This document shows positions 10,963 through 22,934 of a DNA stretch of 64,000 nucleotides, in pieces. Source of the stretch: a phage; the sequence record NC_100327.1, one strand, 5' to 3'. The first letter of the stretch is position 1; each line of letters opens with the position of its first letter. Under the pieces are notes generated by a model that was given only the letters and a program-made list of their open reading frames with translations, searched no databases and was not told where the DNA came from. The position numbers and the translations under genes are program-made.

Positions 10963-11012
10963 AAATTTATCCTCTTTACTGGTTAGTGCGGTGTTGTTCA
11001 CCTTGTAGGGTA

Positions 11013-11040
11013 ATAATACCATGATTAACCTTGTTGTCAA
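11013..11040 (-). promoter_or_regulatory. sigma70-type promoter (TTGACA, 16 bp, TATTAT)
   Basis: Read on the minus strand upstream of 10765-10962. Confidence 0.5.
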
Positions 11041-11339
11041 CGATTATTTTAAATTATTTTTATGATAGAATCCACCTGCCGCCCCCGCCAGGTTAACCAC
11101 CATTTTTTCGTACTCTTCTTTATGTTCCCGCGCTTCTGTATCATTAATCACTACATTTCCAGGTGAGTAGCATTACCTTTCATTTTTGTACCTCCTCTTC
11201 AATTGTTTACCCTACAGCATGGGCCTACCAGGTTTGCAAGATTTCACCCTCTCCCACCTGGTCAGTTAGGTCCTGCCAGGCTGGCCCCGCCAGGTTGCAG
11301 CGGTTAGCGCATCAGGTTAGAAAAATTTTTTGAAAAGTG

Positions 11340-11368
11340 TTGACAGCGGCCCCGACAGGTGGCACAAT
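11340..11368 (+). promoter_or_regulatory. sigma70-type promoter (TTGACA, 17 bp, CACAAT) reading into the non-coding region
   Basis: Plus-strand hexamers; GC-rich element copy B begins about 15 nt downstream. Confidence 0.4.
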
Positions 11369-11382
11369 ATACCTATCGAAAG

Positions 11383-11420
11383 GACGGCAGGCACCGGTGA
11401 CGGGGGAGACAACCACCAGG
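11383..11420 (+). promoter_or_regulatory. Conserved GC-rich promoter-proximal element, copy B
   Basis: ggacggcaggcaccggtgacgggggagacaaccaccagg; followed at 11440-11455 by GAGAACGGTTATCATT. Confidence 0.5.
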
Positions 11421-11483
11421 GATGAGCGCTGCATAAAATGAGAACGGTTATCATTATCATTTAAAAATTTATGCAAAAAATCC

Positions 11484-11511
11484 TTGCTTTCTTTGTCCTG
11501 TGTGATACTAT
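11484..11511 (+). promoter_or_regulatory. candidate sigma70-type promoter (TTGCTT, 16 bp, TACTAT; overlapping TATAAT)
   Basis: Plus-strand hexamers just upstream of GC-rich element copy C. Confidence 0.35.
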
Positions 11512-11526
11512 AATAACAAGCCGGGG

Positions 11527-11568
11527 CAACAGGGGCCGGGAGACAATCACCGGGCCTGCCCGTTATTC
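11527..11568 (+). promoter_or_regulatory. Conserved GC-rich promoter-proximal element, copy C
   Basis: caacaggggccgggagacaatcaccgggcctgcc; followed at 11576-11591 by GAGAATGATTATCATT. Confidence 0.5.
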
Positions 11569-11707
11569 TGCAAACGAGAATGATTATCATTCAAGATTCT
11601 AAATGAGAACTCCTCGCATTTAATAAATTTAATTAGCACGCTAATTACCCTCCGTAACAATTTACTATAAAATAGTATCCACTAAAATATTCCCATATAG
11701 AAATTTT

Positions 11708-11884
11708 AAAAATCCATTTCTGAAAACGAAAAATCGATTTCGTCCCCAAAAATTTCAGGTTGAGAGCCGGAACGATTTCCAGAAAATCCGATTCAGAAAA
11801 CGAAAAACAGATCGAGTACTGAGAAATTTATCGAGAAAAATTTTCAGAAAATCCAAGCCCTGAAATGAAAAGTAGATCGAGTAC
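11708..11884. repeat. Iteron-like array of three about 40-bp direct repeats (core GAAAATCC..GAAAACGAAAAA..GATCGAGTAC)
   Basis: Units at about 11708-11742, 11781-11819 and 11845-11884; related partial copies near 12059-12100 and 12140-12160. Confidence 0.5.
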
Positions 11885-12196
11885 CTGGAAAGCTGCACCG
11901 CAACTTCAAGATAGCGGTTAGATTGTTACCATAGAAGGTCAAGGGTAAGTGGAGGAAGTTCTAGTAGAGGGAGGTTAGCATGTGTGGGAAATCTATAATG
12001 GTGGCCTGGAATATGGTGCAAACGATAGAATGAGTTATTCAGCTTGTCGCGCCTACTCTGAAAAATCCATTTTAGTTTTCGATCCATTTTCTGATTTTCT
12101 AAGAATTTTAAAATATCCAGCCCGGTGAAATATCAAAAGGAGGAAATCCATTTTAGAAATCCCCCTTATACTTGATATGCCAGGAATTTTCAAGTA

Positions 12197-12526
12197 TCAG
12201 TTGTCTTTGTTTTTAGGTTTGTACATGCGCAGAGGTATGGTCTTTGTAACATTCCATTTCCTCAACCCTTCCCAGCTCCAGTTGTGGGCGTGGTATCCGG
12301 TTATGCATGCACTACTGGAGTGATCGTAAGCATAAGAGAACGCTAAGCGCACCAGGTGGGGCCAGTCCTTCCATGGTTGTGGACCGTAAGCTTTTCTCCA
12401 ACACCGACACAAACTAAATGTCTCAAGGATAGGAAGGATAACAAATCCATACACCGCCACCAGAATAGCCAGCGCAATGATTGTCAGGAATACATACCCT
12501 GCAGTTGAAATGATGATCTCTGTCAT
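12197..12526 (-). CDS. membrane protein (109 aa)
   Basis: ORF-track ORF; hydrophobic N-terminal segment. Confidence 0.45.
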   Translation of the reverse strand: MTEIIISTAGYVFLTIIALAILVAVYGFVILPILETFSLCRCWRKAYGPQPWKDWPHLVRLAFSYAYDHSSSACITGYHAHNWSWEGLRKWNVTKTIPLRMYKPKNKDN

Positions 12527-12720
12527 TTGTCCTCCCCTTTCTTACGAATATAGATGTGAGAGCCTGCCTGTATATAAATTTCTCGACCATCTTCTGCAAA
12601 GATATGAAATACACGATCACCTTCGTACTCGATACGAGATATTTTCATAATGGTCTTTCCACCTGGGATACGGATCTCGTCCCCCACAGCGATGTTCCAT
12701 GCAGATTTAAGCTTAAACAT
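12523..12720 (-). CDS. hypothetical protein; likely start ATG at 12720 (MFKLKSAW...)
   Basis: RBS AAGGAAGG before the internal ATG; the track start would overlap the upstream gene by 74 nt. Confidence 0.4.
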   Translation of the reverse strand: MFKLKSAWNIAVGDEIRIPGGKTIMKISRIEYEGDRVFHIFAEDGREIYIQAGSHIYIRKKGEDK

Positions 12721-12958
12721 CTGCACCTTCCTTTGGGAGCTCGAACTCTGGCATAGCCATATACGCCACAACAGGGTTGTAATCAAAGTAGAAATGACCG
12801 TTAATTATCCCAGTTTTGTGAGCATAGTCACCAGATCCTGCAAGAACAACCTCGCAAACTCCGAAATCAACCTTGCCATTCTCATCTGCCATGGCTACAA
12901 TATACTTTCCTAGAGGCATGTTTTTAACGCCGTCTACAAATGTCCACCCTTTGTTCAT
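12713..12958 (-). CDS. hypothetical protein (81 aa)
   Basis: ORF-track ORF. Confidence 0.45.
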   Translation of the reverse strand: MNKGWTFVDGVKNMPLGKYIVAMADENGKVDFGVCEVVLAGSGDYAHKTGIINGHFYFDYNPVVAYMAMPEFELPKEGADV

Positions 12959-12979
12959 AACTTTATCTCCTGGACTTTC

Positions 12980-13312
12980 TTAAGGTAACCAGTAAACAAT
13001 TTCGCCTTTCAGTTCCATGTCGTTACCGACATAGATTTTCCAGCCATCCATTTTAGCCACTGCAGGAGTGAAGTCCGAAGAACCACTAACCTCTTTCCAA
13101 GTCCCGTAGTCAGGTTGCCAGATATAGAATCCACCTTCCTTGTCCCATGCTCCATATACCACATCGAGCAGGTTGCCCATTGCAACAATAGTAGGCCGTG
13201 GGAATAATACATCTACAGATGCACCACAATTTCGGGTAGATTTTAAATTACAATCCCAAAAGATGTCTGCCAGTGTGGCGGCAATAGCTTTACGTCTTTC
13301 CAATGTTACCAT
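12980..13312 (-). CDS. hypothetical protein (110 aa)
   Basis: ORF-track ORF. Confidence 0.45.
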   Translation of the reverse strand: MVTLERRKAIAATLADIFWDCNLKSTRNCGASVDVLFPRPTIVAMGNLLDVVYGAWDKEGGFYIWQPDYGTWKEVSGSSDFTPAVAKMDGWKIYVGNDMELKGEIVYWLP

Positions 13313-13322
13313 GGCACGATAC

Positions 13323-13514
13323 TCACTTGTTGTTAAGAAGTTCTAAAACTTTCTGTTTTACTTTGTCAAGGTCTGTGGATTCAAAAACTGTACGATATCC
13401 CCAACTTTGCCCATAGGAGTGACTGCAATCCCCGTAGCACCATTGCTCAATTTGATAGTATTCAAGGAACGGGTGCTGTCTAACTATGATACCATCCCGG
13501 TTAAAAATTACCAT
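13323..13514 (-). CDS. hypothetical protein (63 aa)
   Basis: ORF-track ORF. Confidence 0.4.
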   Translation of the reverse strand: MVIFNRDGIIVRQHPFLEYYQIEQWCYGDCSHSYGQSWGYRTVFESTDLDKVKQKVLELLNNK

Positions 13515-13577
13515 AATACATCACCCTCTGTTAGTTTATGCGTATATTATACACTGCAGTTTTCAGATGTCAACCTC

Positions 13578-13829
13578 TTACAGATTGCTCCAGTACAATC
13601 GGCATTTACATTTTGGGCAATGAGGTTCTTTTATGTAGTAACCGTCAGTCTTTGGAACACTTTTTGGTGCAGTTTTAAGATTGTACCTGGTAAAACATCG
13701 GAAGCAGGTTACCTCTCCCACCTGTTGATCGTTGATCCACTCACCGGAGTAAAGTTCTTTCTTGTTTCTCATAATTCTCTCCCAAATCCTCTGCAATCTT
13801 ATACCAAAATCTCCAGCCAGAAAGCACAA
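13578..13829 (-). CDS. small zinc-ribbon-like protein (CxxC ... CxxC)
   Basis: Two Cys pairs (CFRC and CPKC); true start may be the internal ATG (MRNKKELYSGEW...). Confidence 0.45.
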   Translation of the reverse strand: MCFLAGDFGIRLQRIWERIMRNKKELYSGEWINDQQVGEVTCFRCFTRYNLKTAPKSVPKTDGYYIKEPHCPKCKCRLYWSNL

Positions 13830-14023
13830 GGGAACACTTTGAGGATTGAATCTTTACTTGGCTCGGAAGTTCTTTTTCCGTATGGTAGGTAGAAATACCC
13901 TCCTGCAGATTCGAATATAGCTCCTTCGGTTGTATCTACCACAGCAAGAATTAAGATTTTAGTCTCCACAGTGCTCTCCTCTCTTAGTTGTCGTGGAAAC
14001 TATATCACCTCAGAAGATGGTCG

Positions 14024-14482
14024 TCAACACTTTTTGTACTCCACCACGACAATATCTATGTCGAAAGTGGCAAGGTTAATAACGTCCTCTACGTGTTCCC
14101 ACTTCAAACCGCCTATGCCGCACCCGATCTTAGGGATGTAGAATGGTAAAGTCGATCCGCTGAATACTTCATTGACTAGCTCAAAGCCTTTCAGGATTGA
14201 GAAATACTCAGCATTAGGTCCTGGGTAGAACTGGGTATATAGATTGATTCCGTAGACAATACCTATCGGAGATAAGTGCTCCCATCGGGAGAACGCACCC
14301 AGTTTACTTAGGCAACCGTATCTAGTCTCTTTGTCGGCTGACAGTGCTTGAGGAAACTCACGGGCAATCTGTTTTGCTATACCCTTGCCCATTGTGTGGA
14401 AGCAGTTACAACCGTGGATCAGGTGACCAGCACCGCTCTTAAAAAGGGAGATTAAATCTCCCTCTACAGTATCAATAATCAC
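14024..14482 (-). CDS. macro-domain protein (ADP-ribose binding/processing); probable GTG start at 14482
   Basis: N-terminal block GDLISLF...HLIHGCNCFHTMGKGIAKQI and C-terminal IPKIGCGIGGL match the macro-domain pattern; RBS GAGGAG lies 10 nt before the GTG; the track start at 14563 would overlap the upstream gene. Confidence 0.55.
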   Translation of the reverse strand: MIIDTVEGDLISLFKSGAGHLIHGCNCFHTMGKGIAKQIAREFPQALSADKETRYGCLSKLGAFSRWEHLSPIGIVYGINLYTQFYPGPNAEYFSILKGFELVNEVFSGSTLPFYIPKIGCGIGGLKWEHVEDVINLATFDIDIVVVEYKKC

Positions 14483-14897
14483 GGTAAGCCAGCTCCTCTT
14501 CCGCAATTTCAAAAAACTCAGTCCAGCACTGTGGCATATTGGAGTTACCGAAGTGGCTTTCATAGTAAAGGTTCTTACCGCTAGGAAGGTAGAAATCTGT
14601 TACCTCATAAAATCCACAATCGTCGCACTCACCTTCTTCAAACTTGGCCTTAACCTTAATACCGAGGAAGGTGAAAAGTTTATGGACATCTTCAGTTTCG
14701 AACTCCCAGGGAATGTTGTTTTCCGCATCGGTGTAGAACTGGATCAGCAGACCATTGTCCAGTTTACCAAAATACTCTGTGAAGTAACTTCCTTCCCAGA
14801 AATCTTTATGACAAATAATATCCATGCGTTTGCCCATAATAATGGTGTGAGCGTTTTGGGCATCGTCACGAATCAGTTTTGGCATTTCATAGATCAT
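14472..14897 (-). CDS. hypothetical protein (141 aa)
   Basis: ORF-track ORF. Confidence 0.5.
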   Translation of the reverse strand: MIYEMPKLIRDDAQNAHTIIMGKRMDIICHKDFWEGSYFTEYFGKLDNGLLIQFYTDAENNIPWEFETEDVHKLFTFLGIKVKAKFEEGECDDCGFYEVTDFYLPSGKNLYYESHFGNSNMPQCWTEFFEIAEEELAYRDY

Positions 14898-14965
14898 CTT
14901 AGTTCTCCTGGTTCAACAGGTGGTGGCGCTACAGGAAGATCATAAAACATAGCTATCACAGTCTC

Positions 14966-15163
14966 TTACACAGGAATTGCTTCAAACAGGCCGTTATCTA
15001 TACCGTCCTTCAGATAGAGATTATATTCTATGTCGGTATCTGTGTAAAGGGCAGCATCCAGCATTCTATCTGTGAGTCCATCCATTGGGTGGATAAACCA
15101 CCACCCACGCCAGTCAAAGTAACAGCCTGGTGCATCTTCTCTTACACGGATTCGATAAATCAT
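14966..15163 (-). CDS. hypothetical protein (65 aa)
   Basis: ORF-track ORF. Confidence 0.4.
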   Translation of the reverse strand: MIYRIRVREDAPGCYFDWRGWWFIHPMDGLTDRMLDAALYTDTDIEYNLYLKDGIDNGLFEAIPV

Positions 15164-15259
15164 GGGCAGTGGCCTCCTGTTAGTTATACATCCCAGTTTT
15201 CTTCGTTCATCACGTCCTCCCGTTCTATGAAGTTATAATTGCACACCTTTCAATCTGTG

Positions 15260-15676
15260 TCAACAGAAAACTTCAACAAACTCTTCCACAGTTTTAATGT
15301 CGTGGGAAAAAGGTTTACGGCTATAACGGGCAATAGCACTATCAACCACCGCCCGGTACTCTAAATCTTCAGAGTATTTCATGAAGCATTGTAGCGTCTC
15401 TGGACAGATAGCTAAATAGCTCCACCACCCTTCTTCAGATTGGTAGTCGAATCCCATACTCTCCAACCATGAAGCATATACTCCTGCACCCTCAAGCCAG
15501 TGAGTATTTTCATCCAGAAACTTGTTAATAGACATGTGAGCTTCTAAGCATTTATCTAGCTCTTTTCCGTTAACCAGCCACGCACTGACCGTGGCGCATC
15601 CAAGGTCTACAGATTGAGTTGACAGGTTGTATTGGTCATAGTTCTCAGGTTTAACAATGATATCTTCTAATGTCAT
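15260..15676 (-). CDS. hypothetical protein (138 aa)
   Basis: ORF-track ORF; RBS AAGGAG after the terminator at 15690-15725. Confidence 0.5.
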   Translation of the reverse strand: MTLEDIIVKPENYDQYNLSTQSVDLGCATVSAWLVNGKELDKCLEAHMSINKFLDENTHWLEGAGVYASWLESMGFDYQSEEGWWSYLAICPETLQCFMKYSEDLEYRAVVDSAIARYSRKPFSHDIKTVEEFVEVFC

Positions 15677-15689
15677 TTTTCAGATCTCC

Positions 15690-15725
15690 TTATACAAAAA
15701 TGCCCCACCCTTTCGGGCAGGGGCT
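15690..15725 (-). terminator. Rho-independent terminator after the SSB-like gene
   Basis: GC-rich hairpin (plus-strand tgccccaccctttcgggcagggg) followed by a U-run on the minus strand; near-identical copy at 26570-26602. Confidence 0.5.
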
Positions 15726-15739
15726 ATGTTAACTAATTG

Positions 15740-16966
15740 TTAAAAAGGGATGTCATCATCAAAGGAGTACTGTGCTGGATTCTGATCCATTGGGTCATCT
15801 TCCTCATCATTTACAGGAGGAGCGTCTACAGTGTTTTGCTGTGGAGCTGCTTCCTGTTTGGTAGCCTGAGGTTCTTGATGGTCAGTTGACCCAGCACCGT
15901 TCTTGATCCAATCGTACAACGGCTCAGCCAGATTAGTCAAGACATCTTTTGCTTCTGCAGTAATTGCCGCTGCAAAATCATCAACTTTCGTTTTCTTGTC
16001 AATACGGCGACAAGCGTTCAACACCGCATTACCGACACTGGCACCTACTTCATCTTCAGTTCGGTTGGTGGCCTGAGCATACTCTTTCTTAAGCTCAATG
16101 GTGACTACGTGCAGTGTTTTAGCCACGCCCAGTGGGTCGTCTACCTTAAACCCGCGATCCAGGATGATCTGCAACGCATTGATGCTATGCCCCGTTTCCA
16201 CACCGATAGGGTCGTAAGAGGATTTACGCTTGCCACCGGAGCCTTGAGTGCCGTTCTCTGCCTTAGGGGGGTAGGCTTTGAAACCACTGATAATGTTTCC
16301 GGTGTCTTTGTCAACAATGGCTGCAACACGACCACCTACCACCAGATCTTTAAGCTGCTCATCGGTGACAACCATAGCACCTTCGCCAATCTTGTGGTCA
16401 TTGACAGTAACCACGTTGCCAACAATCTGAGTCACATCGCCATAGATGCGTAAAACGTCCTGATTGGCATTCTGCTGAGGTTTCTGCTTCTGGCCTTGTG
16501 ATTGTGCACCTTGTTGCTGTTTTTGCTGCTGAGTCGCTGCTGGAGCCTCTCCTGCACCCAGCTTGACCATCTTAGCCAGTGAGCCTTTGTAATAGGTCTT
16601 ACCGTTATGCTCGTTTGCCTTCAAAGGGATATTTACGATCCATCCCGGCGTTACGGTTTCCCACTTGTCATCAATTTTAACAGAGACAGAGTCTTGATGA
16701 CCAGGTTTAAGCAGCTTATCACCCATGCTGATCCAAACTTCTTCACCACCTTGAAGCAGGTTATCAGAGGAATCCAGTTCAGAAATCAGTAAAGAGATGG
16801 TGTGGCTGGATTCAATTTTCTTACCTTGCCACACAGTGGTTTTAATACCTGTTGTAGGATCAGCACCTTTGATAGGCTTGATGCTGACACGTTTAATCAT
16901 GCCGTGAGCCAGTAAAACAGTTTCACGCGGATTCATCGGGTTAGCGAATTGTTGAATAACGCTCAT
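15740..16966 (-). CDS. putative ssDNA-binding/recombination protein with SSB-type acidic C-terminal tail
   Basis: Ends in DDDIPF, matching the E. coli SSB C-terminal tip; Gln-rich linker; sits next to the replication module. Confidence 0.5.
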   Translation of the reverse strand: MSVIQQFANPMNPRETVLLAHGMIKRVSIKPIKGADPTTGIKTTVWQGKKIESSHTISLLISELDSSDNLLQGGEEVWISMGDKLLKPGHQDSVSVKIDDKWETVTPGWIVNIPLKANEHNGKTYYKGSLAKMVKLGAGEAPAATQQQKQQQGAQSQGQKQKPQQNANQDVLRIYGDVTQIVGNVVTVNDHKIGEGAMVVTDEQLKDLVVGGRVAAIVDKDTGNIISGFKAYPPKAENGTQGSGGKRKSSYDPIGVETGHSINALQIILDRGFKVDDPLGVAKTLHVVTIELKKEYAQATNRTEDEVGASVGNAVLNACRRIDKKTKVDDFAAAITAEAKDVLTNLAEPLYDWIKNGAGSTDHQEPQATKQEAAPQQNTVDAPPVNDEEDDPMDQNPAQYSFDDDIPF

Positions 16967-17331
16967 TATTTGTCTCCTTGTTCTTCGTTAGTGTTTGCCG
17001 TGTGTGCAAACCCTGCTTGAATTAATTTGTCCTGAACTTGAGCCAACAGCCCCATTGCAAAACTTGTGGTCCCAGAGAGGGCCATCAGCATATCTCGTTG
17101 TTGAGCTACCCAACCTAAGGCATAGTCCAAACGACGATATTTTTCTTCTTCACGCAGAGCTTGAAATAATTGTTCAGCCTCTGGTTGTTGTGTTAGCTCC
17201 TGAAGTCTTCCCATGAAAGAAGAAAGCACTAGCAAAAGAGACACTTGATCTTTACTTAACCCTAAGAAAAATTCTTGAGGTTGTTCTTGCTCGTTCATCG
17301 CAACCGACTCTTGATCGTTCATTTGTTCCAT
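16966..17331 (-). CDS. hypothetical acidic protein (121 aa)
   Basis: ORF-track ORF; start overlaps the upstream stop. Confidence 0.45.
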   Translation of the reverse strand: MEQMNDQESVAMNEQEQPQEFFLGLSKDQVSLLLVLSSFMGRLQELTQQPEAEQLFQALREEEKYRRLDYALGWVAQQRDMLMALSGTTSFAMGLLAQVQDKLIQAGFAHTANTNEEQGDK

Positions 17332-17414
17332 TATGGAATCTCCGATTTTATTTGAACAACATAGAAGGAGACACTATTTTAGCATCCCCTTCTGTAAATT
17401 ACAATAGGTATTTG

Positions 17415-17660
17415 TTAGCCAATCACTTCGAAAGTTCCCCAATTCCCGTCCAGCAGGCAGGTGATCGGATCCCCATCGTCGTCAAAGATTTCAAAGTTTT
17501 CAGCATCCAGGATGTGGCCCTCGAACACAATACTTTCGTCGCCACCACCAGAGATAACAGCGTATTCCTTACCTTGAGTCAAGTTTTGACACCCTTTGCC
17601 ACCAAAACCTACTTCAACACAACGTACTTTCTGTCCTGCGCGAGCAACTACTTCAGTCAT
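17415..17660 (-). CDS. hypothetical protein (81 aa)
   Basis: ORF-track ORF. Confidence 0.45.
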   Translation of the reverse strand: MTEVVARAGQKVRCVEVGFGGKGCQNLTQGKEYAVISGGGDESIVFEGHILDAENFEIFDDDGDPITCLLDGNWGTFEVIG

Positions 17661-17677
17661 CTTAAGGTCTCCTGATA

Positions 17678-17998
17678 TTAATCGTCAAGTTCAAAATAGA
17701 TTTTAACAGCTTCATCGAAGATTGGAATCCCGATGTTGTTGATAAGCTGCCAAACTACCATATCTTTACCTGGATCTGGGAGAATGTCAACCTTTCTCCA
17801 TGCGCTGTATACCCAGTTCGGACCGCCTTCTGCACTAACTGGCAGATTTTCACCAGCCTCCTGTAGATACTTATACAGCAAAAGATATTCTGGATACTCC
17901 AGAACACTGTCCTCTGTAGTATATAGCAGTTCACGGTATACTTTTAAGAACCCTGCTGGGGTGATGTTTTCAGTCTTCATTTGCTGCTTCTCCTGCAT
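17678..17998 (-). CDS. hypothetical protein (106 aa)
   Basis: ORF-track ORF. Confidence 0.45.
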   Translation of the reverse strand: MQEKQQMKTENITPAGFLKVYRELLYTTEDSVLEYPEYLLLYKYLQEAGENLPVSAEGGPNWVYSAWRKVDILPDPGKDMVVWQLINNIGIPIFDEAVKIYFELDD

Positions 17999-18359
17999 TC
18001 ATCAGATCTGCCATAGCGTCACCCACGAAGAGAACAACCACATCGTTTACCGCGTCAGCATCATCTTTGTTGACGTTGCTGAATTTAGGACACACAGCAA
18101 TAATCATATAGACACCGTTACCCACCTGAACTGTCCGTGTGGTGCACATCATGGCGGTATTTGTGCCTTCTTTGAAGGCGAAGCCTTGAAGACGCTCCTC
18201 TAGAGTGTTACCGGTAGACTTCAGAAGCGCCAGCTCGTCCAAGGCATAGATGATATCTCCGGAAGTTAGTGTTGCCTTGCCATCAGACACCATAATCACT
18301 CCATCAGCACCGTCAAGCTTAGAGGCTTCAAAGATATCAATATCCCAAATATTTTTCAT
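17970..18359 (-). CDS. hypothetical protein (129 aa)
   Basis: ORF-track ORF. Confidence 0.45.
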   Translation of the reverse strand: MKNIWDIDIFEASKLDGADGVIMVSDGKATLTSGDIIYALDELALLKSTGNTLEERLQGFAFKEGTNTAMMCTTRTVQVGNGVYMIIAVCPKFSNVNKDDADAVNDVVVLFVGDAMADLMNAGEAANED

Positions 18360-18691
18360 TACGCTTCCTCGTCATCTAAGTAATCATCAAGAGAGGTGAA
18401 GATTTCACCGAAGTATTCTAAGATTTCTAGCTCCCGTGTGGTGCAGCAAACATAATCGCCTTGGTCGTCCTTAATAGTGGCCTCTTTACCAAGAATATCT
18501 ACTTCAAGTTCATCGTTCAGCAGGACGGCCCCTGTGTAAACTTTGTCAGCTGTGCAGTCCCGAAAAGCAGAGTCCTTCTCCAGATAGTCTGGCTTAACCT
18601 TGGCTTTAATTCGTTGGTATTGTTTGGTCATTGTTGTGGTCCCCTTTCGTTTTGATAGGACCATTGTATTAGGTCCTATCGCTGTTGTCAA
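18359..18691 (-). CDS. hypothetical protein, paralog of 18695-18949
   Basis: Shares DSAFRDCT...GD.V.CT..E pattern with the neighbouring gene. Confidence 0.5.
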   Translation of the reverse strand: MTTAIGPNTMVLSKRKGTTTMTKQYQRIKAKVKPDYLEKDSAFRDCTADKVYTGAVLLNDELEVDILGKEATIKDDQGDYVCCTTRELEILEYFGEIFTSLDDYLDDEEA

Positions 18692-18694
18692 GTA

Positions 18695-18949
18695 TTAATG
18701 TTCAGGTTTTACAAAAACGACTTCATTAACAGTGCACCAGACAGAGTCTCCTTCATCATCTTTAAAGGTAAGGCACTGTGCTGAGTTTTCCAGCTCATCG
18801 ATCTCTTCTTGTGATAAAGGGGCCCCTTCTTCCAGAAGGGCTTTTACCAGAGGGTTCTCACAAAACTCTGCTTCATAAATTGCACCGACTGTGCAATCTT
18901 TAAAAGCTCGGTCATTTGCAACGCATTCTGGCTTCAAAGTAATTTTCAT
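18695..18949 (-). CDS. hypothetical protein, paralog of 18359-18691
   Basis: DRAFKDCT ... EGDSVWCTVNE aligns with the neighbour. Confidence 0.5.
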   Translation of the reverse strand: MKITLKPECVANDRAFKDCTVGAIYEAEFCENPLVKALLEEGAPLSQEEIDELENSAQCLTFKDDEGDSVWCTVNEVVFVKPEH

Positions 18950-19025
18950 CTTGGCAGTCTCCTTAGTTATTTAAAAATCAACGCTCTGTTTGTGTGAAGC
19001 ATCTTATATCTAATCTTACTTCTTG

Positions 19026-19424
19026 TCAATGGCTATTTTCAATCAGCCACACAGGGTCGAGGTAAATTTGTTGGCGTGTTGCCCAATGACAAACTTCATT
19101 GTACATCTGAATCTCTTTGTCTGTCAATTCACGAATAGGCTCATCTATACCCTCATTTTTGTGGTAATCCCAGTCGGCATCGATTTCCCACAGCCATGAC
19201 TTGTTGTCACCACGCTTACGCACACAAAAGTCACCTGGACGGCCTGCCAATGCATTTAAGAACTCGTTCTCCGCTCGCTCTTGGAGAATACTAAGGAGCA
19301 AAACGTTAGAACATGACCGTAGAATATGCTTCAGCTCACAATCATCAATCTCAACTTCAATACGTTGTTTGACTGTGTGGGTACCTTTTACTAACATCCT
19401 ACCTCCTCTAAACGAACTCTGCAA
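19026..19424 (-). CDS. hypothetical protein (132 aa; start uncertain)
   Basis: ORF-track ORF. Confidence 0.45.
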   Translation of the reverse strand: MQSSFRGGRMLVKGTHTVKQRIEVEIDDCELKHILRSCSNVLLLSILQERAENEFLNALAGRPGDFCVRKRGDNKSWLWEIDADWDYHKNEGIDEPIRELTDKEIQMYNEVCHWATRQQIYLDPVWLIENSH

Positions 19425-19602
19425 GAGTTGTGTTGTTCACTGCACCGCAGTAAATGGAGTATCCCAGCCCATTAGAGTGCAGAAACCACGGCGTTCCGAA
19501 ATTATCTTTCACGTAGACATCGCCGTTGCTTGTAAAGGGCCAATATTCTTCGCCAAGGGTAAAATACCTACTCATACCTTCAGCAAGATACTTTACTTTC
19601 AT
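19408..19602 (-). CDS. small protein, member of a three-gene tandem paralog family
   Basis: Shares F..G..Y.V....D..G..WF pattern with 19599-19826 and 19823-20197. Confidence 0.45.
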   Translation of the reverse strand: MKVKYLAEGMSRYFTLGEEYWPFTSNGDVYVKDNFGTPWFLHSNGLGYSIYCGAVNNTTLAEFV

Positions 19603-19826
19603 AGGTCCTCTTCTACAGCTACAAACTTGGCAAGCAGGGTGGTTCCGTAGATATGATACTCACCGTTTGCCAGATGGGAGATAAACCAGGCAATCCCTTC
19701 CTCGTCTTTAATCATCTTGTTTGCACGATTTTTATCGTAATAAACCTCGTAGGTCTTTCCTTCTTTAAAGAATGACAGGTCTGTCATCTTTTCTTCTACA
19801 AAGGTAGCTTTAACCAAAGTCGTCAT
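19599..19826 (-). CDS. small protein, tandem paralog family member
   Basis: FFKEGKTYEVYYD...IKDEEGIAWF pattern; start/stop overlap with neighbours. Confidence 0.45.
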   Translation of the reverse strand: MTTLVKATFVEEKMTDLSFFKEGKTYEVYYDKNRANKMIKDEEGIAWFISHLANGEYHIYGTTLLAKFVAVEEDL

Positions 19827-20197
19827 TGATCGGTCTCCTTCTTGTTAAGTCTGAATACTGCAATAATAGCATTCCCAAGGTGCAGTGTCAAGTCATTTCC
19901 AAGATACCACAGCATCCCACGGTCATCTTTAATGAAAGGGTAACAATCTGGTGCCTTCCAGACATTGTACACTTTCCCAACCTGAAAGAAATCAGGCCCT
20001 GTTGGGATTTTGGTGCCAGGCCACACTTGAGATACCTGAACACACTCCACCTGCATAATAACAGGAATGGTCATGGATGTAAATGTTTTTGTTGGCTCTA
20101 CTACCATAAAAGTCTCCTCTTTGCTCAACAACACTTCCATGTGTTGATAGTTTACATTAGTGACAATCACCCCAATTACGACCACACAAGTATTCAC
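19823..20197 (-). CDS. small protein, tandem paralog family member (start probably downstream of the track start)
   Basis: FFQVGKVYNVWK...IKDDRGMLWY pattern; the track start overlaps the polymerase 3' end. Confidence 0.45.
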   Translation of the reverse strand: MNTCVVVIGVIVTNVNYQHMEVLLSKEETFMVVEPTKTFTSMTIPVIMQVECVQVSQVWPGTKIPTGPDFFQVGKVYNVWKAPDCYPFIKDDRGMLWYLGNDLTLHLGNAIIAVFRLNKKETDQ

Positions 20198-22934
20198 CTG
20201 TGATCTGGAACGGGACTCCCATCATTTTAGAAGCTTGCCAGAAGCAATGTACCACCATTTCGCCCACAGGACTCCAGATAAGTTCAAGCTTTCCGTCATC
20301 GTTCAAGATAGGATCGTACACCGTGTTTCCGTCTCTGTCAACCACTTCGTTTCCGTTTTCATCCTTGCGTGCCTTTTTGTACTTATGACCGTCGAACACA
20401 TGAAGTTTGGCCTCCTGCTCTGCCTTAAATGCTTCCAATTCTTCAATTGTGTCGAAGGTGTACACAGTCTTATACTTCGGTGTGTCAGGTACTTGAAGCT
20501 GATATTCGTCATGGTAATAGATAATACGACGAACACCTTCATCGTACCACCCACGCTTCACCATTTGGTGGTGCATAAGTATCCCAACCAAGTCACACAG
20601 CGATGCACCACCATTCTGTTGGTATGCATTAAGTAAAGAGTGTTTAGATCGGGTCCAGATGGCATGACCATCAAAAGAGTAGATAAACTTCTTACCCGTT
20701 GCTTCCCAGAATTTCTCCAGATCCTCTTTGCGCCCCTTAAGACCGGGGTTGGCATCCCAAAGTGCATCGATCACCCTTTGCCCCAACTCTGGGGAGATAT
20801 CCAGCATATCTGCAACTTTATCTTTTTGTGCCCCGTACATAACCCCATACGTGATAGGTTTACCGTCGTTACGAGACACCTCTCTGCCTGCTACTTTTGT
20901 ATATGCCTCAGCATTGTTTTGGTGTGCGTCCCCGTTACTTACAACATCATAGTACAAGCCGTTGTCGAACTCAAAGGCACCCCAAGCCCCGATAAGCTGC
21001 TCTAAGTTGGACCCGTCAATACCGATCTCAAAGTATCCAGGAGGAACACCCCACAAGCTACGCATCTCTTTACCCATAACCACTTTAGGAGATGGTTTAG
21101 GCATGTTTGCACAAATACTGTGTTTCTGTCGGGAAGTGTTTGTTAATCCAGAGCTTTTAGCAGGAAGCTTATGGTCAATCTTCAAACGTGGGTGATTAAG
21201 AAGACCAGTATCAACCTTATCCTCCTTGATTGGATCAAGGACCGATCTGCGGTTTCGCAATGATAACCACAAGACGATATCTTTAGCCATCTCTCCGTTC
21301 AATTTTTCAAGATTCGGACATAGGTGTCCAAACGTATCTTTCAGTTGCGGAGAAGTAATAAGTGCCCTGGCTTTTCTGCGTATTTTCCCGAACACTTCCT
21401 TTTTAATCCTTTCGGAGTTAGGAAAGCTTCGGAACTTGTGCACTGTTGTCTGAAACTTAGCATCAGTTTTGTTCCAGAAGTTGATAATTAGGTCACAATA
21501 CTCTGACTCTAAAAGCTCGTCCATGTATGCATATACTCGTGCATCAACATCTGCATCAGGTAGAGCTTTCTTCTTGCTGTCCTTAGTTACATCCTTAGTT
21601 CTCCACATTGTCGGAAGCCAACCAGCACTGATCAGGTATCGCTTAATGTCGTCCTGATTGCTGATTTTCATAGGTATCTTGCAATCAGGCATTCGCTTCT
21701 GCTGCAGATCACTTATTGCCTGATCCATCAGCTCTTTAGGTAAAGGTTGTGGTGTGGAGGTGCCCTTAATATAACCTCTCAAGAAATCAGCCATCTTGTC
21801 GGGGTCTTTGCAGCCCATCTCTTCGCACCATTTTATCCCCATCTTGCTGACATCTCCTGTGGAGGTAAATGCTCGCTTAGGCGGGGCTTTGAATTCTAAA
21901 GCGCTCATGTCTACAGGATAGCCAAGCTTATCTTTTAACCATTTCCAACCATTATTGGAGATTGTCCCATCTTGGTTAAACGGCTTTTCAGGGAACTTGG
22001 GCCGCTGAGACATTGACAACTCTTTTAAAGGAAGTTGTGGTTCAACACGATCAGCGATCTCTTTCATCCACGCATCGCAGCGGTCACGTAAAGCAATAGC
22101 CCCATCTATGTCGAAATACACACCCTGTCGAGCCTGCAGCTCCATCAGGAAATGCTGCAGCATGCCTCGGCGTAATGCATTCTTCCAGGTAATCTTCTTG
22201 AATCCTTTAGGCTTCTCTTTGGCAGGGTCATACATAAAGTTCTGCATGTCAGATTTGCCGTAGAATACACCTTTTGATTCCGCTACCAACTCTTTCCAGA
22301 GCAACTCCTGGATGATAACGTCCTCGAACACACGATCCACATATTTCCACAGCGGAAGATCGCGCCAGTCATCAATTTGAACTTTCTGGTTACCAAGGGC
22401 GTAGCCCCATGCCATAAGGCCGTGAGGACCAACAGGTTGCATTTTCTTAGTAACCGGGTTGAATACAGCGTCCGGACAACCTTTTGGTAAAGGGCGATCA
22501 GGCCACAAGATTCGGCTCATAGCCAACGTATCAAACAGGTTAACCTGGTGGTCGTTGATAGTCCCCATGCATTTAGGATCACGGAACATATCAAAATGAA
22601 TACCGGATAATCTTTCCATTAGCATAAAGTCATAACTGTAGCAGTTATGGCAGTTCAAAGCTGTTGGTGACCAGTCAGAATTGCCTGTAAGCCAACCTTC
22701 CAACTCCGAAAAATCTGCTATGCGAACTTCAAAATCTTTATAAAGAGTTTTCTTTGCCAGAATGAAGTTCTTAGCCTTTTCTATATCCTCCTCGGAGTAG
22801 TGTGTGCGGTCATTTAGAGGAAGGAACAGCATAAAACGGTTCTTATTCAGCTCTTTAAACAGACCGCAGTGATAATAAAGATCTGGGTCTTCCAAAAGCC
22901 CTGAGGCCTCCAGATCGAAGCACCAATTACTCAT
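20157..22934 (-). CDS. DNA polymerase, family A (T7-like), with N-terminal 3'-5' exonuclease
   Basis: Exo I motif FDLEASG at residues 6-12; motif A GIDGSNLEQL; motif B RNDGKPITYGVMYGA; motif C YYHDEYQLQV. Confidence 0.85.
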   Translation of the reverse strand: MSNWCFDLEASGLLEDPDLYYHCGLFKELNKNRFMLFLPLNDRTHYSEEDIEKAKNFILAKKTLYKDFEVRIADFSELEGWLTGNSDWSPTALNCHNCYSYDFMLMERLSGIHFDMFRDPKCMGTINDHQVNLFDTLAMSRILWPDRPLPKGCPDAVFNPVTKKMQPVGPHGLMAWGYALGNQKVQIDDWRDLPLWKYVDRVFEDVIIQELLWKELVAESKGVFYGKSDMQNFMYDPAKEKPKGFKKITWKNALRRGMLQHFLMELQARQGVYFDIDGAIALRDRCDAWMKEIADRVEPQLPLKELSMSQRPKFPEKPFNQDGTISNNGWKWLKDKLGYPVDMSALEFKAPPKRAFTSTGDVSKMGIKWCEEMGCKDPDKMADFLRGYIKGTSTPQPLPKELMDQAISDLQQKRMPDCKIPMKISNQDDIKRYLISAGWLPTMWRTKDVTKDSKKKALPDADVDARVYAYMDELLESEYCDLIINFWNKTDAKFQTTVHKFRSFPNSERIKKEVFGKIRRKARALITSPQLKDTFGHLCPNLEKLNGEMAKDIVLWLSLRNRRSVLDPIKEDKVDTGLLNHPRLKIDHKLPAKSSGLTNTSRQKHSICANMPKPSPKVVMGKEMRSLWGVPPGYFEIGIDGSNLEQLIGAWGAFEFDNGLYYDVVSNGDAHQNNAEAYTKVAGREVSRNDGKPITYGVMYGAQKDKVADMLDISPELGQRVIDALWDANPGLKGRKEDLEKFWEATGKKFIYSFDGHAIWTRSKHSLLNAYQQNGGASLCDLVGILMHHQMVKRGWYDEGVRRIIYYHDEYQLQVPDTPKYKTVYTFDTIEELEAFKAEQEAKLHVFDGHKYKKARKDENGNEVVDRDGNTVYDPILNDDGKLELIWSPVGEMVVHCFWQASKMMGVPFQITGEYLCGRNWGDCH

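What the first reader, a model, noticed from the sequence alone, without database searches (positions are those of the whole stretch)
14024..14482. Phage-encoded macro-domain protein in the early/middle block
The sequence shows the macro-domain hallmarks (HGCNCFHTMGKGIAKQI and IGCGIGGL blocks). Macro domains bind or hydrolyse ADP-ribose adducts, so in a lytic phage this is a candidate counter-measure against host ADP-ribosylating defence or toxin systems. The specific target is an inference.
Basis: partly seen in the sequence, partly recalled or inferred. Interest (0 to 1): 0.55.

Follow-up and report, generated by a model that had tools for sequence, protein, structure and literature searches.

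The report
Phage macrodomain, T4 Tk.4/AdfM relative
This rV5-like coliphage gene encodes a genuine macrodomain enzyme related to phage T4 Tk.4 (AdfM), which protects T4 from the DarTG2 defence, so it most likely strips ADP-ribose off phage DNA; this is a known kind of counter-defence, not a new one.

Summary
A 152-aa gene lies on the minus strand at 14024..14482, with a GTG start and an AGGAG ribosome-binding site. It carries both quoted motifs.

- **Fold:** it passes the Pfam Macro threshold. AlphaFold2 gives a very confident macro fold (pLDDT 96.9). The nearest solved structures are TARG1, Poa1p, DarG, BT1257 and SCO6735, all ALC1-like macrodomains.
- **Source:** the window is a Vequintavirus, 99.9% identical to phages nimi and CarlMeissner/Bas48. 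Several GenBank records already call this gene "macro domain protein" or "phosphatase".
- **Closest characterised relative:** the protein is 39% identical over its full length to T4 Tk.4. It is 69% identical to the gene at the tk.4 position of a Krischvirus. A 2025 preprint showed that T4 needs tk.4 (renamed adfM) to resist DarTG2.
- **Active site:** it is not DarG-like. Gln84 replaces the DarG/TARG1 catalytic lysine, as in SCO6735. SCO6735 cleaves thymidine-linked ADP-ribose from DNA and needs that Gln.
- **Not a DarG antitoxin:** there is no DarT-binding domain, and the DarG equivalog score is 47 bits against a cutoff of 250.

That target is inferred by homology, not tested. It is a new member of a known kind, of low to moderate interest.

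The parts
14024..14482 (-). Coding sequence of the 152-aa stand-alone macrodomain protein (GTG start at 14480-14482, TGA stop at 14024-14026). It is a relative of T4 Tk.4/AdfM.
   Evidence: ORF and translation. Pfam Macro above its cutoff. PHROG 335 at 2e-59. 39% identity and E=3e-41 to T4 Tk.4. AF2 pLDDT 96.9. The same CDS is called in APECc02 RefSeq.
14493..14500 (-). Shine-Dalgarno-like AAGAGGAG, 10 nt upstream of the GTG start. It lies inside the 3' end of the upstream gene, so translational coupling is possible.
   Evidence: Read directly from the sequence.
14366..14416 (-). N-terminal ADP-ribose-binding block HGCNCFHTMGKGIAKQI (residues 23-39). Asn26 (nt 14405-14407) aligns with SCO6735 Asn27 and PhiKZ AdfM Asn23. 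Lys33 aligns with SCO6735 Lys34.
   Evidence: H23, G24, N26, C27, M31, G32, G34 and A36 are invariant or nearly invariant in 70 homologues. SCO6735 N27S nearly abolishes activity (PMC9411070). PhiKZ N23A reduces activity (PMC13309987).
14231..14245 (-). NLYTQ block (residues 80-84). Gln84 occupies the position of the catalytic Lys of DarG (K80) and TARG1 (K84), and equals Gln85 of SCO6735.
   Evidence: Alignments. N80 and Q84 are invariant in 70 homologues. SCO6735 Q85A is inactive on DNA and protein substrates (PMC9411070).
14105..14128 (-). Glycine-rich block IGCGIGGL (residues 119-126), by analogy the diphosphate-binding loop. The position of TARG1 Asp125 is Gly here, as in DarG.
   Evidence: P117, I119, G120, G122 and G125 are invariant or nearly so. 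The loop assignment follows SCO6735 Gly126, which contacts the diphosphate in that paper's simulations.
15235..15263 (-). Candidate sigma-70-like promoter (TTGACA, 17-nt spacer, AATTAT with an extended -10 TG). It could drive the 65-aa, 141-aa and macrodomain genes as one unit. It is a consensus match only.
   Evidence: A terminator-like hairpin at 15722..15703 lies just upstream, after the 408-aa gene. Function is not shown.

Best explanation
The gene encodes a stand-alone, catalytically competent ADP-ribosyl hydrolase of the ALC1-like (TARG1/DarG/SCO6735) macrodomain class. It belongs to the phage Tk.4/AdfM family.

Proposed mechanism:
1. The protein is made during infection, probably early, from host-type promoters.
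2. It binds the ADP-ribose that a host DarT2-type toxin has attached to thymidine in single-stranded phage DNA (TNTC motifs).
3. It hydrolyses the base-ribose bond. This releases ADP-ribose, restores the thymine, and lets replication and packaging proceed despite DarTG2.
4. Catalysis most likely follows the SCO6735 scheme. Gln84, held in place by Asn26, positions the distal ribose for attack by an activated water. It does not use the lysine of DarG/TARG1.

Shown here: the gene, the fold, family membership and the active-site residues. Inferred by homology: hydrolase activity, the DNA-thymidine substrate and the anti-DarTG2 role.
For: - **Fold:** Pfam Macro above the gathering score. The AF2 model has pLDDT 96.9. 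The top Foldseek matches are TARG1 (TM 0.78/0.85), Poa1p, T. aquaticus and M. tuberculosis DarG, BT1257 and SCO6735. A family profile matches the same PDB sequences at 5e-17 to 1e-13.
- **Family:** 39% identity over the full length to T4 Tk.4. The gene sitting between vs and tk in Krischvirus W115 is 69% identical. PHROG 335 matches at 2e-59.
- **Function of the family:** tk.4 was the single significant hit on a DarTG2 host, and its knockout sensitises T4.
- **Active site:** Gln84 and Asn26 are invariant in 70 homologues. They align with SCO6735 Gln85 and Asn27. SCO6735 cleaves DarT-made thymidine-ADP-ribose on DNA and rescues cells from DarT. Q85A is dead and N27S nearly dead (PMC9411070).
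- **Accessory character:** the syntenic 459-nt gene bas54_0092 in Vequintavirus Bas54 took insertions at 31 of 31 TA sites and was scored non-essential on E. coli K-12.
- **Exposure to the toxin:** the window carries 2351 TNTC motifs over both strands.
Against: - No experiment exists for any Vequintavirus protein. I found no DarTG2 plaque data for this phage group.
- Identity to the one genetically tested homologue is only 39%. That evidence is a preprint, is genetic only, and includes no biochemistry for Tk.4.
- The biochemically tested phage AdfM (PhiKZ gp104) is a different, Lys-type clade. It is 20% identical to this protein and scores 133 bits on the PADLOC DarG model, against 48 bits for this protein.
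- SCO6735 also acts on protein substrates, so the natural substrate may be broader or different.
- A comparative survey argued that most phage macrodomains target small ADP-ribose derivatives (PMC9503650).
Confidence: 0.65

Rival explanations
1. The protein processes small soluble ADP-ribose derivatives and not DNA adducts. Candidates are ADP-ribose-1''-phosphate (the origin of the 'phosphatase' label), O-acetyl-ADP-ribose, or ADP-ribose-based immune signals or toxic metabolites made by TIR, Sir2 or RES-type defences.
For: Database names are 'phosphatase' and 'A1pp phosphatase motif'. Yeast Poa1p, an ADP-ribose-1''-phosphate phosphatase, is among the best sequence and structure matches. Iyer et al. 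argue on contextual grounds that phage macrodomains mainly target low-molecular-weight ADP-ribose derivatives (PMC9503650).
Against: The 'phosphatase' label is an inherited domain name, not a test. The only functional data in this family point to DarTG2. The Gln/Asn active-site pair matches SCO6735, a DNA-ADP-ribose hydrolase. The two activities are not mutually exclusive.
Confidence: 0.15
2. The protein reverses ADP-ribosylation of proteins or RNA. The modifier could be another host ADP-ribosyltransferase defence or toxin (for example the mRNA-modifying CmdT) or the phage's own transferases.
For: TARG1 is the best structural match. SCO6735, which has the same Gln-type site, removes ADP-ribose from automodified PARP1 as well as from DNA. 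T4, which carries Tk.4, also carries three ADP-ribosyltransferases (own knowledge, also noted).
Against: No ADP-ribosyltransferase was identified near the gene. The ten nearby ORFs tested have no Pfam domain, and a DarT2 query finds nothing in the window. The rest of the window was not screened for transferases. SCO6735 was inactive on 2'-OH RNA ADP-ribosylation and, in one section of PMC11833690, on phosphate-linked adducts. The T4 screen gave tk.4 specifically for DarTG2.
Confidence: 0.15
3. The protein is a non-catalytic ADP-ribose binder, or a direct stoichiometric inhibitor of a DarT-like toxin.
For: Catalytically dead SCO6735 Q85A still inhibits DarT in vitro by interaction. The canonical catalytic Lys is absent here.
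Against: Every residue needed for SCO6735 catalysis that can be aligned is conserved and invariant in the family. The protein lacks the C-terminal DarT-binding domain of DarG.
Confidence: 0.05

Closest known systems
Phage T4 Tk.4 = AdfM (anti-DarT factor Macrodomain; bioRxiv 10.1101/2025.11.20.689424)
   Same: Same family: 39% identity over the full length, E=3e-41. Same size, stand-alone architecture, and the same HGCNCFHTMG, NLYTQ and IG.GIG blocks. Both match PHROG 335 or carry its 'phosphatase' label. The tk.4-position gene of Krischvirus W115 is 69% identical.
   Different: Different phage family (Vequintavirinae, not Straboviridae) and different neighbours: genes of unknown function here, vs and tk in T4. 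T4 DNA is hypermodified, which is not known for rV5-like phages (own knowledge). No phenotype has been measured for this protein.
Streptomyces coelicolor SCO6735 (PDB 5E3B) and Bacteroides BT1257 (PDB 2FG1/2AFC)
   Same: ALC1-like macrodomain with Gln in place of the catalytic Lys (Gln84 here, Gln85 there) and the supporting Asn in an H-x-C-N motif. These are the best profile matches in the PDB, at about 5e-17 to 8e-17. SCO6735 hydrolyses thymidine-linked ADP-ribose on DNA.
   Different: Only 24-26% identity. The phage protein lacks the 5-6-residue longer 'mobile loop' carrying Lys89/Lys94, which the SCO6735 authors link to DNA clamping. Gly24 replaces Val25, whose proposed role is through its backbone. 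SCO6735 is a cellular housekeeping or repair protein.
DarG antitoxin macrodomain of DarTG2 (PDB 5M3I, 5M31/5M3E, 7OMU)
   Same: Same fold and class. It is the best single-sequence PDB match, 5m3i at 1e-6. The DarG macro half aligns over residues 5-148. Both have GGL rather than the TARG1 Asp in the C-terminal loop. The substrate is presumably the same.
   Different: Gln replaces the catalytic Lys80. There is no C-terminal DarT-binding domain. The NCBIfam DarG equivalog scores 46.8 bits against a cutoff of 250. No DarT gene is adjacent.
PhiKZ gp104 AdfM (chimallivirus DarG2-like macrodomain; PMC13309987)
   Same: A stand-alone phage macrodomain that removes DarT2-made ADP-ribose from DNA and neutralises DarT2. 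The conserved Asn in the first loop aligns with Asn26.
   Different: A separate clade: 20% identity. It is Lys-type (FPTK) and scores 133 bits on the PADLOC DarG model, against 48 bits here. It is imported into a phage nucleus, which Vequintaviruses are not known to have (own knowledge).
Human TARG1/OARD1 (PDB 4J5R/4J5S)
   Same: Best structural match (TM 0.78/0.85). TARG1 also reverses thymidine ADP-ribosylation.
   Different: Neither member of the Lys84/Asp125 dyad is present. Those positions are Gln84 and Gly here.

Membership tests
Macro domain superfamily (Pfam PF01661) | Profile match above the curated gathering score | tested here: met
   28 bits against a cutoff of 22, E=2.2e-6.
Macro domain superfamily (Pfam PF01661) | Three-layer alpha/beta macro fold | tested here: met
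   AF2 pLDDT 96.9, pTM 0.91. 167 PDB matches at E<=0.001; all 50 listed are macrodomains or serine hydrolases designed on a related scaffold.
Macro domain superfamily (Pfam PF01661) | ADP-ribose binding or hydrolysis | not testable with these tools
   Needs purified protein.
ALC1-like (TARG1/DarG/Poa1p/SCO6735) macrodomain class | Closest sequence and structure neighbours are members of this class, not MacroD, PARG or viral Mac1 types | tested here: met
   The top 23 Foldseek hits are TARG1, Poa1p, DarG, BT1257 and SCO6735, apart from two designed hydrolases; coronavirus and alphavirus macrodomains rank lower. PDB profile hits are the same set.
Phage Tk.4/AdfM family (PHROG 335) | Full-length homology to T4 Tk.4 with the same conserved blocks | tested here: met
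   E=3e-41 and 39% identity over 150 residues. PHROG 335 at 2e-59. 69% identity to the tk.4-locus gene of Krischvirus W115.
Phage Tk.4/AdfM family (PHROG 335) | Protects the phage against DarTG2 | not testable with these tools
   Shown only for T4. No Vequintavirus data were found.
DarG antitoxin (NCBIfam NF048014 equivalog) | Score above the equivalog cutoff | tested here: not met
   46.8 bits against a cutoff of 250; only profile positions 3-141 of 338 are matched.
DarG antitoxin (NCBIfam NF048014 equivalog) | C-terminal DarT-binding domain | tested here: not met
   The protein is 152 aa and ends with the macro fold.
DarG antitoxin (NCBIfam NF048014 equivalog) | Catalytic lysine (K80 in T. 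aquaticus DarG) | tested here: not met
   Gln84 occupies this column.
DarG antitoxin (NCBIfam NF048014 equivalog) | Operon partner DarT | tested here: not met
   tblastn with a P. aeruginosa DarT2 finds nothing below E=0.4 in the window. The ten nearby ORFs tested have no Pfam domain. This was a single-query test, so it is weak.
SCO6735/BT1257 subclass | Gln at the catalytic-Lys position, plus the supporting Asn (Gln85/Asn27) | tested here: met
   Gln84 and Asn26 align and are invariant in the family.
SCO6735/BT1257 subclass | Extended mobile loop (about 5 residues longer, with Lys89/Lys94) | tested here: not met
   The loop has the DarG/TARG1 length: a 6-column gap relative to SCO6735 and BT1257.
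TARG1 | Lys84/Asp125 catalytic dyad | tested here: not met
   Those positions are Gln84 and Gly (GCGIGGL against GCGLDRL).

The most novel reading that the evidence does not exclude
The Tk.4/AdfM clade, including this Vequintavirus protein, may not be a captured DarG antitoxin. It may be a separate Gln-type lineage of ALC1-like macrodomains shared with free-living bacteria: Rhodobacterales, Hyphomicrobiaceae and Nitrospirales carry HGCNCFHTM/NAYTQ homologues without a nearby DarT. On this reading the enzymes use lysine-independent, water-mediated chemistry like SCO6735, on a compact scaffold that lacks SCO6735's DNA-clamping loop. The phage enzyme would then be a general eraser, acting on DNA and on protein or other adducts, and would defeat several ADP-ribosylating defences and not DarT2 alone.
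Probability: 0.3. Interest if true: 0.45.

Novelty: new member of a known kind. Interest (0 to 1): 0.28.

Why it matters
The result predicts that rV5-like coliphages, which are used as biocontrol and therapy candidates, are intrinsically protected from DarTG2-type defence. It names one gene whose loss should expose them, and that gene is dispensable in the laboratory.

It also adds a small mechanistic point. The T4 Tk.4/AdfM family carries the SCO6735-type Gln active site, not the DarG/TARG1 lysine. The two phage proteins both named "AdfM" (T4 Tk.4 and PhiKZ gp104) are therefore chemically different solutions to the same problem. Beyond that the finding is ordinary: the domain is already annotated in GenBank and its likely role is already published for a homologue.

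Tried and rejected
- **Longer ORF from ATG 14563 (179 aa).** Rejected. The extra 27 codons overlap the upstream gene, no RBS was noted there, and database records call the 459-nt CDS.
- **The 56-aa ORF 13799..13969 as part of a macro gene.** Phage Alma labels it "Putative macro domain protein". Rejected: it has no Pfam hit and no hit to the family HMM, and it belongs to a separate PHROG of unknown function.
- **A second macrodomain in the window.** None found. The family HMM run against all six-frame ORFs hits only this gene.
- **The overlapping upstream 141-aa gene (PHROG 8157) as a functional partner, possibly replacing the DarG C-terminal domain.** Not supported. In Krischvirus W115 its homologue lies about 9 kb from the macro gene, and it has no Pfam domain.
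- **A DarT or other transferase nearby.** None found.
- **The homing-endonuclease insertion seen in related phages as a disruption of the macro gene.** Rejected. It sits between the 408-aa and 138-aa genes.
- **Placing the clade inside one ALC1-like subgroup by profile scores.** Not resolved. BT1257, SCO6735, DarG and TARG1 all score within 5e-17 to 1e-14.
- **The search for related loci with the 70-sequence alignment.** It failed because no stretch was conserved enough. The 17-sequence alignment worked.
- **Literature search for Vequintavirus behaviour on DarTG2 hosts.** Nothing found.

Full report
**1. What is in the sequence**

On the minus strand, 14482..14024 encodes a 152-aa protein. The purely mechanical ORF reaches an ATG at 14563, but those extra codons lie inside the upstream gene 14472..14897. 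The GTG at 14480-14482 is the likely start. It sits 10 nt downstream of AAGAGGAG and overlaps the upstream stop by 11 nt. The same 459-nt CDS is called in APECc02 RefSeq, I29, Bas48 and Bas50.

**2. Where the window comes from**

The 3 kb around the gene is 99.9% identical to Escherichia phages nimi and CarlMeissner (Bas48). It is at least 90% identical in 118 of the 119 matching records, nearly all of them rV5-like phages of the genus Vequintavirus. Several of those records already name the gene "macro domain protein", "phosphatase", "Poa1p-like family protein" or "T4-like protein with Macro domain". The presence of the domain is therefore already on record.

**3. It is a real macrodomain**

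- Pfam Macro scores above its gathering cutoff (28 bits against 22).
- PHROG 335 matches at 2e-59.
- AlphaFold2, run on a 70-sequence alignment, gives pLDDT 96.9 and pTM 0.91.
- Foldseek against the PDB returns TARG1 first (TM 0.78/0.85). Poa1p, T. aquaticus and M. tuberculosis DarG, Thermosipho DarTG, BT1257 and SCO6735 follow. Coronavirus and alphavirus macrodomains rank lower.
- A family profile hits the same PDB sequences at 5e-17 to 1e-13.

These neighbours place the protein in the ALC1-like class. The class name follows the usage in PMC9411070.

**4. Closest characterised relatives**

tblastn finds homologues in 2717 phage records, mostly large myoviruses of enterobacteria. In T-even phages the homologue is tk.4, which lies between vs and tk. 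T4 Tk.4 is 39% identical over the whole length, with E=3e-41. In Krischvirus W115 the gene at that same position is 69% identical to the window protein. This family has therefore moved between T4-like and rV5-like phages.

A November 2025 preprint (10.1101/2025.11.20.689424) screened a T4 transposon library on a DarTG2 host. It found tk.4 as the single significant hit and showed that a clean knockout sensitises T4. The authors renamed the gene adfM and proposed that it removes ADP-ribose from DNA. No biochemistry was reported for Tk.4.

In the same study, the Vequintavirus Bas54 has a 459-nt gene (bas54_0092) in the same order and with the same 11-nt overlap as here. It took insertions at 31 of 31 TA sites and was scored non-essential on K-12. 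I assign orthology by synteny and size, not by sequence. A dispensable gene fits an accessory counter-defence role.

**5. Active site**

DarG and TARG1 use a lysine (K80 and K84), and TARG1 adds Asp125. In every alignment I made, the window protein and T4 Tk.4 have Gln at that position, in the block NLYTQ. The TARG1 Asp position is Gly. Gln84 and Asn26 are invariant across 70 homologues.

The same Gln, and the Asn in an H-x-C-N motif, occur in SCO6735 and BT1257. For SCO6735 the following has been shown (PMC9411070):
- The enzyme removes DarT-made thymidine-ADP-ribose from DNA.
- It rescues E. coli and S. coelicolor from DarT.
- It loses all activity with Q85A and almost all with N27S.
- The authors propose a water-mediated, lysine-independent mechanism.

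The phage proteins differ from SCO6735 in lacking its 5-6-residue longer "mobile loop".

A second phage protein also named AdfM, PhiKZ gp104, removes DarT2 marks in vitro (PMC13309987). It belongs to a different clade. It is Lys-type (FPTK), 20% identical to the window protein, and scores 133 bits on the PADLOC DarG model, against 48 bits here.

**6. Not a DarG antitoxin**

The NCBIfam DarG equivalog model matches only its macro half, at 46.8 bits against a cutoff of 250. There is no C-terminal DarT-binding domain. I found no DarT gene in the window, though this was a single-query tblastn and so a weak test.

A scan of one genome per species found 33 cellular homologues, mainly in Rhodobacterales, Hyphomicrobiaceae and Nitrospirales. 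They are 28-56% identical over the best-matching segment, mostly 34-43%. All carry the searched HGCNC motif and 29 of 33 also show NAYTQ. Several sit on contigs of megabase size. Conserved neighbours in several Hyphomicrobiaceae loci look like housekeeping genes, including an isoleucyl-tRNA-synthetase-like protein; I identified that one by eye. None has a DarT2 homologue within 4 kb by the same weak test. This hints that the clade is a free-standing lineage and not a recently captured antitoxin. I did not build a phylogeny.

**7. Context in the window**

The ten nearby ORFs tested have no Pfam domain, and the eight adjacent genes checked fall in PHROGs of unknown function. The overlapping upstream gene is not linked to the macro gene in Krischvirus, so there is no case for a partnership.

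The region 11000..20500 has twice the expected number of sigma-70-like promoter matches, most of them on the minus strand. One 10/12 match at 15263..15235 could serve the 65-aa, 141-aa and macro genes. A terminator-like hairpin at 15722..15703 lies upstream of it. Early expression is therefore plausible but unproven.

**8. Verdict**

The protein most likely erases DarT2-type thymidine ADP-ribosylation from phage ssDNA, using SCO6735-like Gln chemistry (confidence about 0.65).

Three rivals remain open because nothing has been measured for this protein:
- hydrolysis of small ADP-ribose derivatives;
- reversal of protein or RNA ADP-ribosylation;
- stoichiometric binding without catalysis.

It is a new member of a known kind. 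The only mildly new point is that the Tk.4/AdfM family is Gln-type and distinct from both DarG and PhiKZ AdfM.

Noticed in passing
window 15740..16966 (-): A 408-aa protein with a Gln/Pro-rich middle ends in ...YSFDDDIPF. That is the same C-terminal tip as E. coli SSB (own knowledge). It has no Pfam hit and falls in PHROG 4477, of unknown function. Its syntenic counterpart bas54_0087 was scored Essential in the HIDEN-SEQ supplement. It may be a phage ssDNA-binding protein or a mimic of the SSB tail.
   Followed up: partly
window 13799..13969 (-); L001 6800..6970: Phage Alma (OV101294) labels this 56-aa ORF 'Putative macro domain protein'. It calls the real macro gene 'Phi92_gp185' and gives it a shorter start. 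The 56-aa product has no macro signal (Pfam, family HMM), so that annotation looks misplaced.
   Followed up: yes
window ~15700 (between 15676 and 15740); L005 3235..3858, L007 2840..3463: Several Vequintaviruses (I29, DrSchubert/Bas50, Bas54, rV5_ev168, CM1) carry a ~620-nt homing endonuclease (endonuclease VII-like) gene here, overlapping the end of the 408-aa gene. This window lacks it.
   Followed up: partly
window 14472..14897 (-): The 141-aa gene overlapping the macro gene start by 11 nt (PHROG 8157, unknown function) has 38-39% identical homologues in Krischvirus T4-like phages. There it lies about 9 kb from their macro gene.
   Followed up: partly
window 11000..20500, e.g. 13573..13546 (-): Sigma-70-like promoter matches are enriched (34 against 17.6 +/- 4.1 expected), mostly on the minus strand. 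They include a perfect TTGACA-16-TATAAT at 13573..13546. This is consistent with a host-RNA-polymerase-transcribed early region.
   Followed up: no
L040 3263..4522 (+) (uncultured Cellvibrionaceae MAG): One cellular homologue is a 419-aa fusion. An N-terminal domain with a GSR...GGADGAD motif, which by eye resembles DprA/SLOG-type domains, is joined to the HGCNCFHTM/NAYTQ macrodomain.
   Followed up: no
phage database hits to window 13000..16000: Sixteen records named 'Campylobacter phage' (host C. jejuni) match this E. coli rV5-like region. The one listed, C12 (137.6 kb), is 96.5% identical. This suggests mislabelled or contaminating Vequintavirus genomes in that dataset.
   Followed up: no
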